From positions 438,960,001 to 439,024,000 of the forward strand of contig OZ024740.1 of the NCBI GenBank assembly GCA_964016885.1: 64,000 bases of DNA, written 5' to 3'. Every line of letters begins with the position of its first letter. Positions within the stretch are counted from its first letter, which is position 1. Position numbers and translations under genes: made by a program. The notes beneath the pieces are model-generated. The model saw only the letters and a program-made list of their open reading frames with translations. It made no database searches and had not been told where the DNA came from. The DNA is from Eledone cirrhosa (Eukaryota). Shown piece after piece: positions 38,363 through 39,547 of this stretch.

Positions 38363-39145
38363 TTTTGGTTTGGTTTAAATGGCGCAAACAACGGATTTTA
38401 TTAAGTAATTTGAAGTTACTTTTCAATCATGGATCATCTCTGAAGAAGCAGAACACAATCAAATGAATTCTAGACATAACCCTCTTATCTTTTTAGATGC
38501 AGTGAACCTCTATATTATAAATGTCCTTCCTTTTATAACTTAATAAGTCGCAATTTCAGACAAATTGCTGCTCTTTCTAGTATCTCATGAATCCACGTAA
38601 AAACCTTCTTATTGGCTCATAGGGAAAGGAAAAGAGGGTGGTCACTGGTGTCATGTGTATTCTAAGTTTTCAGGTCTGTGGAGCAATATACATTTAATTT
38701 GGTGATGAGTTAAAGCCAGGTATGAACTCGACTCACAAGAATCTTCGTATTTCATCATAATCTGTCGAAAATAACACAAAAACATTTTCATCTTATCATT
38801 AATTAACTTATTGACTTAATGGATTTTTACTTGCTCGATATATATATATATATATATATATATATATATAGTAATAATAATAAATTTGAAGACTAGTGAT
38901 TCTTTGCTTAAACTTTAATCTGTTATTTTGATATATATATATATATATATATATATATATATATATATATATATATATATATATATATATATATATATAT
39001 ATATATGTATATATGCAAAAGTTCTATTTAAAGTTGTTGGGATCCAACAAGTAAATATTTTTATAACTGATATAAAGCACTCGACAAGTTTTTGAAGTAG
39101 ATATACGATATTAATAAATGGAAACTATATTTATAAAACCATATT

Positions 39146-39210
39146 TATTTCATTATACATATTTCAGGGATACCACATTAAATTATGGTATGCCTTCATC
39201 AGACAAAATA
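39146..39210 (-). ncRNA. Type-I hammerhead ribozyme candidate (mirror copy)
   Basis: Exact reverse complement of 39293-39357. Confidence 0.8.
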
Positions 39211-39292
39211 CAATATATAACAGTTTTACAAATAGCTTTGACGTACCCTTTTAAAGTGCAACCATTACTATTTGTAAAACGGTTATATATTG

Positions 39293-39357
39293 TATTTTGT
39301 CTGATGAAGGCATACCATAATTTAATGTGGTATCCCTGAAATATGTATAATGAAATA
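39293..39357 (+). ncRNA. Type-I hammerhead ribozyme candidate
   Basis: UAUUUUGU CUGAUGA AGGCAUACCAUA AUUUAA UGUGGUAUCCCU GAAAU AUGU AUA AUGAAAUA: 8-bp stem I, long stem II, self-complementary AUAUGUAU stem III. Confidence 0.8.
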
Positions 39358-39547
39358 AATATGGTTTTATAAATATAGTTTCCATTTATTAATATCGTAT
39401 ATATATATATATATATATATATATATATATATATATATATATATATATATATATATATATATATATATATATATGTATATATATATATATATATATATAT
39501 ATATATATATATATATATATACACATATATATATATACATATATATA

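What the first reader, a model, noticed from the sequence alone, without database searches (positions are those of the whole stretch)
39015..39402. Young palindromic insertion with intact hammerheads on both strands
The 135-bp arms differ at one position that I could see, so the insertion is probably recent. Transcription in either direction would give a complete type-I hammerhead (8-bp stem I, long stem II, AUA site), but also a long hairpin that would compete with it and could feed RNAi or ADAR editing. This is the best candidate for activity as written.
Basis: partly seen in the sequence, partly recalled or inferred. Interest (0 to 1): 0.75.

Follow-up and report, generated by a model that had tools for sequence, protein, structure and literature searches.

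The report
Back-to-back Penelope stubs, masked ribozymes
This palindrome is two short back-to-back end pieces of a very common Penelope-like jumping gene; each carries a hammerhead self-cutting RNA motif found letter-for-letter 576 times in the genome, and the long hairpin is predicted to keep both switched off, so it is likely an ordinary inert insertion.

Summary
In detail: 135-bp inverted arms (39101-39235, 39268-39402), one mismatch, and a complete type I hammerhead on each strand, with the + cut site after 39349. The interpretation mostly does not. The insert is the hammerhead-bearing end (pLTR) of a Hydra-clade Penelope-like retrotransposon. It lies as a short copy head-to-head with a copy carrying an 86-nt tail, in (TA)n: the published insertion form of these elements. 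Full-length relatives encode a ~735-aa telomerase-like RT with Hydra-clade motifs. The same 66-nt hammerhead occurs 576 times exactly; 21 perfect head-to-head pairs lie on this contig. One mismatch in 135 is average for the youngest subfamily (1.5%). In either read-through direction the antisense arm is made first, and the active fold is predicted ~96 kcal/mol above the hairpin. Stem III is the weak palindromic, dimer type. Both arms start downstream of the family's likely RNA start. So it is a poor, not the best, candidate for activity. Of wider interest: family copies stop at the A of an initiator-like TCACT, often after an extra G, which favours a capped sense RNA as template. The scan noted this architecture and reading before on other DNA of this genome.

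The parts
38931..39014 (.). (TA)n tract, left flank and likely target
   Evidence: TRF period 2, 42 copies; family ends abut (TA)n
39015..39100 (-). 86-nt 'tail' of the long copy; in full-length elements it leads on to the ORF start 45-46 nt further
   Evidence: 79 of 148 aligned copies reach this end
39101..39235 (-). left arm: pLTR part of the long copy
39146..39210 (-). type I hammerhead of the long copy (core from 39202, A17 at 39154)
39236..39267 (-). spacer: the unpaired 5' part of the long copy, which starts 67 nt before its core
   Evidence: aligns colinearly to family copies
39268..39269 (.). 2-nt microhomology at the head-to-head junction
   Evidence: junction compared with natural copies L078, L106
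39268..39402 (+). right arm: short copy, starting 33 nt before its core and ending at the family's short 3' end
   Evidence: 2093 exact short ends followed by TA
39293..39357 (+). type I hammerhead of the short copy; predicted cut after 39349; palindromic stem III/loop 39341-39348
39398..39547 (.). (TA)n tract, right flank
   Evidence: TRF period 2, 75 copies

Best explanation
The insert is a doubly 5'-truncated, head-to-head pair of ends (pLTRs) of a Hydra-clade Penelope-like retrotransposon family in a TA microsatellite, likely left by one insertion event and predicted to be silent as a ribozyme. Shown: identity of the family, the two fixed 3' ends (short end and end of the 86-nt tail), head-to-head orientation, TA flanks, 2-nt microhomology at the join. 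Inferred: the element's GIY-YIG-type nuclease cut the (TA)n; each DNA end primed reverse transcription on the sense RNA, one from the short end and one from the tail end; both cDNAs stopped early (33 and 67 nt before the core) and were joined by microhomology. The hammerhead is conserved in the replicating lineage, where it likely works as a dimer or with protein help, and decays neutrally in inserted copies. Any RNA from this locus would be read-through, would make the antisense arm first, and would zip into a 135-bp duplex that hides the ribozyme.
For: Family: 45 matches from 40 scored candidates, many as inverted pairs. Exact counts: 2093 short ends plus TA, 1644 tail-continuing forms, 576 whole hammerheads. 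Of the first 100 short ends on contig 1, 44 have an exact long form head-to-head within 10 kb, 2 direct, 0 tail-to-tail, 54 none. Of 148 distinct aligned copies, 62 end at the short site and 79 reach the tail end; 58 of 62 and 68 of 79 run into (TA)n, and 6 of the other 11 long ones run on towards the ORF. Full-length relatives L101, L102, L104, L105 read pLTR+tail, ORF of 743-750 codons, ~1.4-1.8 kb, pLTR; the L105 3' pLTR is 97% identical to the window copy. The protein has YRDD, RWR, DKT, CxCX5C, CxxC..E..N..CxH and lacks CCHH: the Hydra diagnostics of PMC8557442 section 11. Its model (pLDDT 81.6) has TERT as top Foldseek hit, E 7e-10; Atlas neighbours carry HTH_animal, GIY-YIG and RVT_1. 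The inverted truncated copy plus tail is the published form; a purified PLE protein cuts and extends both strands and starts at two RNA sites that define the tail (PMC11167929). Core columns vary 13 of 1320 against 760 of 14696 elsewhere across subfamilies, but 5 of 539 against 64 of 5940 within the young one. Stem II shows compensatory changes. Active fold lies 95.7 kcal/mol above the ensemble in both read-through RNAs and still at least 35 after replacing half the A's of the antisense arm.
Against: Pfam and PDB-sequence searches did not recognise the ORF; clade placement rests on motifs and fold, not on a tree with named Hydra proteins. The tail (86 nt) and the 3' region are longer than published for PLEs (30-40 nt tail; Hydra elements generally under 3 kb). 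No target-site duplication can be read inside (TA)n. The twin-priming steps are inferred from ends only. Nearest-neighbour folding ignores Mg2+, tertiary contacts, proteins and kinetics. No read or contig spans the locus. Copies within one genome are related, so the covariation and conservation counts are not independent events.
Confidence: 0.9

Rival explanations
1. Same element, but the inverted arm is made by fold-back self-priming on one template (antisense RNA, or the first cDNA), as proposed for rotifer Penelopes, not by two priming events.
For: PMC3846280 discussion passage reads head-to-head palindromes as self-priming on an antisense template. Several family junctions have overlaps of 6-19 nt or both arms ending at the same place (L145, L147, L071).
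Against: The two arms usually have different 5' ends (-67 and -33 here). Many junctions have 0-5 nt overlap. A neighbouring stub (38871-38929) joins a long end and a short end that do not overlap at all, which a fold-back copy cannot give. 5' ends pile up at the A of a sense-strand TCACT with an extra G in 12 of 19 truncated junctions, which fits a capped sense RNA.
Confidence: 0.2
2. The locus is an active ribozyme unit: a transcript starting in the spacer, or transient opening of the hairpin, lets one hammerhead cut, alone or as a trans dimer with other family RNAs.
For: Core, stems and cut site are intact; stem I+II of the isolated 79-nt motif is its minimum-energy fold; a PLE hammerhead cleaved once the PLE protein was added (PMC11167929).
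Against: Even alone the full active fold is 5.4-6.6 kcal/mol above the ensemble and the dimer stem III is worth about -2.2 kcal/mol. Single PLE minimal hammerheads showed no cleavage and dimers little (PMC4209133). The two motifs are on opposite strands, so no cis dimer. Both arms lack the likely start site at -88. No sign of selection on the core after insertion.
Confidence: 0.07
3. The palindrome spreads as a unit (a MITE-like or retrozyme-like non-autonomous element).
For: Three loci share one junction sequence (L198, L210, L211); the neighbouring second family has a near-fixed centre.
Against: In this family the junctions differ from locus to locus; none of the fetched loci repeats the window's -67/-33 junction; no tandem monomers as in retrozymes.
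Confidence: 0.04
4. Assembly artefact from fold-back reads beside TA repeats.
For: No contig or read spans the locus; palindromes beside TA tracts are hard to assemble.
Against: The arms end exactly at the family's two fixed 3' ends, differ at one site, and the same form recurs at many loci with arm spacings from 85 bp to 6.3 kb.
Confidence: 0.02

Closest known systems
Hydra clade of C-terminal-endonuclease Penelope-like elements (Craig et al. 2021, PMC8557442; passages, section 11, supplement part 2 read)
   Same: RWK/RWR, DKT, CxCX5C linker, CxxC and CxH around E and N, no CCHH; (TA)n targets; type I hammerhead near the 3' end with a short palindromic stem III, an extra base on each side of stem II and often A at the cut site; inverted 5'-truncated copy (noted for Penelope-13_HM).
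   Different: The hammerhead sequence differs from all listed ones, including Hydra-1_Obim, so it is another family. Unit about 3.7-4 kb (pLTR to pLTR in L102, L104, L105) with a long 3' region; tail 86 nt; thousands of copies.
Penelope of Drosophila virilis and Adineta vaga Penelopes (PMC2377424 and PMC3846280, passages read)
   Same: Inverted pLTR of variable length, tail on one end only, microhomology joins, TCACT initiator-like word in the pLTR.
   Different: Different clade (they carry CCHH); tails 31-34 nt; target-site duplications readable there, not here.
Minimal/dimeric PLE hammerheads (Cervera and de la Pena 2014, PMC4209133; parts 1-2 of 4 read)
   Same: Type I, long stem II, weak palindromic stem III; pairs on opposite strands 100-700 bp apart were already reported in Schistosoma.
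   Different: Longer stem I (8-13 bp, AU-rich) and AUA site.
Non-LTR retrozymes (bioRxiv 10.64898/2026.07.22.740005; part 1 of 5 read)
   Same: Type I hammerhead related to PLE pLTRs, no protein in the insert.
   Different: Retrozymes are tandem direct repeats with two or more hammerheads on one strand; here one per strand.

Membership tests
Penelope-like elements (EN+) | Single ORF with telomerase-like reverse transcriptase | tested here: met
   In full-length relatives, not in the insert: YRDD ORF; top Foldseek hit TERT E 7e-10. Pfam and PDB-sequence searches were blank.
Penelope-like elements (EN+) | C-terminal GIY-YIG endonuclease | tested here: met
   VVY..YVG, R, N and later E, N conserved in 23 rows; Atlas neighbours at 0.96-0.97 carry PF01541 on 26-50% of members. 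No direct Pfam hit.
Penelope-like elements (EN+) | pLTRs in tandem or inverted arrangement with a tail on one end | tested here: met
   Tandem L102, L104, L105; inverted L031, L101; 44 of 46 near pairs head-to-head.
Penelope-like elements (EN+) | Hammerhead in the pLTR, same sense as the ORF | tested here: met
   Core lies 237-238 nt before the ATG in L102, L104, L105.
Hydra clade | RWK motif, DKT in place of DKG | tested here: met
   RWR and DKT in P0001; RWK in most homologs.
Hydra clade | CxCX5C linker; CxxC and CxH flanking E and N; CCHH absent | tested here: met
   CNCRNKSNC, CDLC, CRH; one Cys between the GIY- and YIG-like words.
Hydra clade | Insertion into (TA)n | tested here: met
   58 of 62 short ends and 68 of 79 long ends.
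Hydra clade | Groups with named Hydra RTs in a tree | not tested
   No named Hydra protein was fetched.
Hydra clade | Generally shorter than 3 kb | tested here: not met
   pLTR-to-pLTR 3.7-4.2 kb; a tendency in the paper, not a strict criterion.
Type I hammerhead ribozyme | Core CUGANGA, GAAA, NUH with stems I-III | tested here: met
   N7 varies across subfamilies while the core stays.
Type I hammerhead ribozyme | Stems supported by covariation | tested here: met
   25 picked of 67 distinct variants: 94% of cells paired, 4 pairs changed on both sides (all stem II); slid controls 34-53%; 42 of 500 shuffles reach the pair count, so support is moderate.
Type I hammerhead ribozyme | Stable monomeric stem III | tested here: not met
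   2 bp plus 4-nt loop; self-complementary 8-mer, the dimer type.
Type I hammerhead ribozyme | Self-cleavage | not testable with these tools
   Needs a bench assay.
Non-LTR retrozyme | Tandem monomers with two or more same-strand hammerheads | tested here: not met
   One hammerhead per strand, no tandem unit.

The most novel reading that the evidence does not exclude
The family's stubs record the replication chemistry of Penelope-like elements: both cut ends of a TA repeat prime on a capped, uncut sense RNA that starts at the A of TCACT, 88 nt before the hammerhead, and the RT adds a base opposite the cap. This would settle the sense-versus-antisense template question for head-to-head pLTRs and show that hammerhead cutting is not what sets the 5' end of most copies. 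The window copy is one ordinary data point in that record.
Probability: 0.6. Interest if true: 0.5.

Novelty: new member of a known kind. Interest (0 to 1): 0.2.

Why it matters
The locus itself matters little: it is one of likely a hundred or more equally perfect two-hammerhead palindromes of this family. It is a useful caution: intact ribozyme letters and near-identical arms do not indicate activity. The family matters more. It is a young, abundant Hydra-clade element with long open ORFs, two exact 3' ends and a sharp 5' stop, which makes the open question of how Penelope-like elements build inverted ends testable. If such palindromes lie in transcribed introns they would be perfect dsRNA for editing, but that was not shown.

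Tried and rejected
Rfam: 0 hits at gathering score. Pfam on the ORF and homologs: no relevant family; PDB by sequence profile: 0. Sequencing runs: 6 listed, no RNA holder listed; laying 4 runs gave no piece across the locus, so polymorphism and expression are open. Fossil A-to-I editing: among 59 young copies A>G 11 of 3866 A against T>C 11 of 4446 T, no excess and no cluster; none of the window's four differences is A>G on the sense strand. The sample favours copies like the window's, so heavily edited copies could be missed. 5' ends at the hammerhead cut: 3 of 58 mapped ends at +46 to +50, no pile-up. A constrained two-molecule fold crashed; only the isolated stem III duplex was computed. 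Host gene: none of 54 open frames of 130+ codons in the window looks like a host exon (by eye), so an intronic setting is neither shown nor excluded. Arm identity as a clock: weak, 95% interval 0.02-4%. Lunse et al. 2016 (dimer cleavage) is not held; known only through a review passage. Literature searches for a cap-derived G or twin priming in Penelope-like elements found nothing relevant; most subscription papers are not searched.

Full report
Observation. The arms are real: 39101-39235 and 39268-39402, 135 bp, one mismatch, 32-nt spacer. Each holds a full type I hammerhead; on + the core is at 39301, GAAA at 39338 and the predicted cut after 39349; on - the core is at 39202. Rfam does not call it at gathering score. 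The insert is asymmetric: read on the minus strand, the spacer, the left arm and 86 more bases (39015-39100) are one continuous copy, and the right arm is a second, shorter copy. Both 3' ends abut (TA)n.

What it belongs to. The arm is a high-copy repeat: 2093 exact short ends followed by TA, 1644 exact tail-continuing forms and 576 exact 66-nt hammerheads. Of 148 distinct copies aligned from fetched loci, 62 end at the short site, 79 reach the tail end and 7 end elsewhere. Of the first 100 short ends on contig 1, 44 have an exact long form head-to-head within 10 kb, 2 direct, none tail-to-tail and 54 none (exact matches only, so a lower bound). One inverted pair 3 kb apart enclosed a broken ORF (L031). 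Searching with it gave 150 scored matches at 90-100% identity. Of 12 longer stretches fetched, 11 hold open frames over 700 codons; L102, L104 and L105 read pLTR+tail, ORF, long 3' region, pLTR, with the ATG 45 nt after the tail and 237-238 nt after the core.

Clade. The L105 protein has YRDD, RWR, DKT, CNCRNKSNC (CxCX5C), CDLC..E..N..CRH and no CCHH; these are conserved across 20 of 30 database homologs aligned. Craig et al. list exactly these for the Hydra clade, with (TA)n targets (PMC8557442 section 11). Their table of Hydra hammerheads shows the same build but no identical motif, including the one octopus family. Pfam and PDB-sequence searches were blank, but the predicted structure's best match is TERT and Atlas neighbours carry GIY-YIG, RVT_1 and HTH_animal. 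No tree was built.

The form is published. An inverted 5'-truncated copy with a tail on one end is the typical PLE insertion (PMC8557442 passages; PMC3846280 passages; PMC2377424 passages). Opposite-strand hammerhead pairs 100-700 bp apart were reported in 2014 (PMC4209133). A purified PLE protein cuts and extends both target strands and starts at two RNA sites that define the tail (PMC11167929).

Age. One mismatch in 135 sits within the young subfamily's 35 in 2378 (19 pairs; P=0.41). Against the subfamily majority the two copies differ at 1 of 135 and 3 of 252 positions; the median of 59 copies is 1.2% and 8 have none. The sample was picked by likeness to the window. The mismatching G is shared by 1 of 41 other young copies. 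Among the 80 exact hammerheads on contig 1 there are 21 head-to-head pairs, 14 within 700 bp. The copy is young but typical. With a recalled octopus rate near 0.36% per million years this is roughly 1-3 million years; that rate comes from no call.

The ribozyme. Across subfamilies the 11 core columns vary 13 in 1320 against 760 in 14696 for other pLTR columns; within the young subfamily 5 in 539 against 64 in 5940. So the core is kept in the replicating lineage and drifts after insertion. Stem II has compensatory changes, G-C to A-U in 7 and U-A to C-G in 4 of 25 picked variants (25 of 67 distinct variants, related to each other). Stem III is 2 bp with a self-complementary loop, the dimer type; such motifs cleave poorly or not at all alone. 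The isolated active fold lies 5.4-6.6 kcal/mol above the ensemble; in RNA spanning both arms 95.7 kcal/mol, on either strand. In both directions the antisense arm is transcribed first, and equilibrium folds of growing + transcripts pair the sense arm as it appears. Replacing 25-50% of the antisense arm's A's, as a rough stand-in for editing, left at least 35 kcal/mol. These are model values without Mg2+, protein or kinetics.

5' ends. Earlier scan notes suggested that such stubs stop at the RNA start; I tested this here. Copies matching 23 nt from the A of TCACT (-88 from the core) are preceded by the templated C 389 times and by another base 61 times; the same design 5 nt upstream gave 4, of which 2 are truncations. 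Of the first 30 of the 61, I class 19 as truncations by eye (the script's cut-off misfiled 6 copies of a T-variant subfamily as truncated) and 11 as continuing; 12 of the 19 have G (P about 1e-4 at 21% expected; 10 of 17 if three identical junctions count once). In some the partner arm could supply the G, so this is support, not proof. TCACT was named as the initiator-like word of rotifer pLTRs. The window's arms start at -67 and -33, downstream of this site, so neither holds the likely start. Only 3 of 58 mapped ends fall at +46 to +50, the hammerhead cut.

Mechanism. Most likely both ends of a cut TA tract primed on the sense RNA, one at the short end and one at the tail end, and two truncated cDNAs were joined over 2 nt of microhomology. 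Self-priming on an antisense template is the main rival; unequal arm starts and a neighbouring stub with non-overlapping arms count against it.

Not shown. Transcription, editing, small RNAs, polymorphism and cleavage. No RNA run was listed and no contig spans the locus. Supplements of the bioRxiv preprint were not seen; of the Craig supplement only part 2 of 59 and search hits were read, so a deposited consensus of this family elsewhere (for example Repbase) is not excluded.

Verdict. Real, correctly described, ordinary: a new family member of a known kind, interest 0.2. The scan has reported the same architecture, clade and RNA-start reading on other DNA of this genome.

Noticed in passing
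window 39546-39742: A second, unrelated head-to-head stub in the same TA tract: about 60-bp arms plus a 77-nt tail, holding only the 3' half of a hammerhead-like motif (GAAAC, hairpin with palindromic loop, GUC). 38 of the 40 best copies show the inverted arm at nearly the same centre, though the query included the centre. Further copies at 30433-30618 and 34794-34965. Fixed centre: either a sharp RNA 5' end or spread as a unit.
   Followed up: partly
window 38871-38929: 59-bp stub of a third family: 28 nt of its long end inverted against 38 nt of its short end, no overlap and so no palindrome; longer copy with a hammerhead-like motif in L021. Three such stubs sit within 900 bp of TA tracts.
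   Followed up: partly
window 40040-40555: Open frame resembling the C-terminal restriction-like endonuclease of a non-LTR retrotransposon (RHD, RPDIVV, EISCP words; resemblance recalled); no Pfam hit.
   Followed up: no
window 45550-45600, minus strand: Another minimal hammerhead motif (core at 45587, short stem II, GAAAC..GUC) of a different family.
   Followed up: no
window 1-11000 and 14000-23000: Large satellite arrays; the first has a higher-order period near 3564 bp, the second a strong GC skew of about 0.8.
   Followed up: no
L105:4341-6569, L101, L102, L104: Many copies keep open frames over 700 codons, with an Asn-rich insert between thumb and nuclease like the N-rich inserts of rotifer Penelopes.
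   Followed up: no
L198, L210, L211: Three loci share one identical head-to-head junction, suggesting a palindrome that was itself copied.
   Followed up: no
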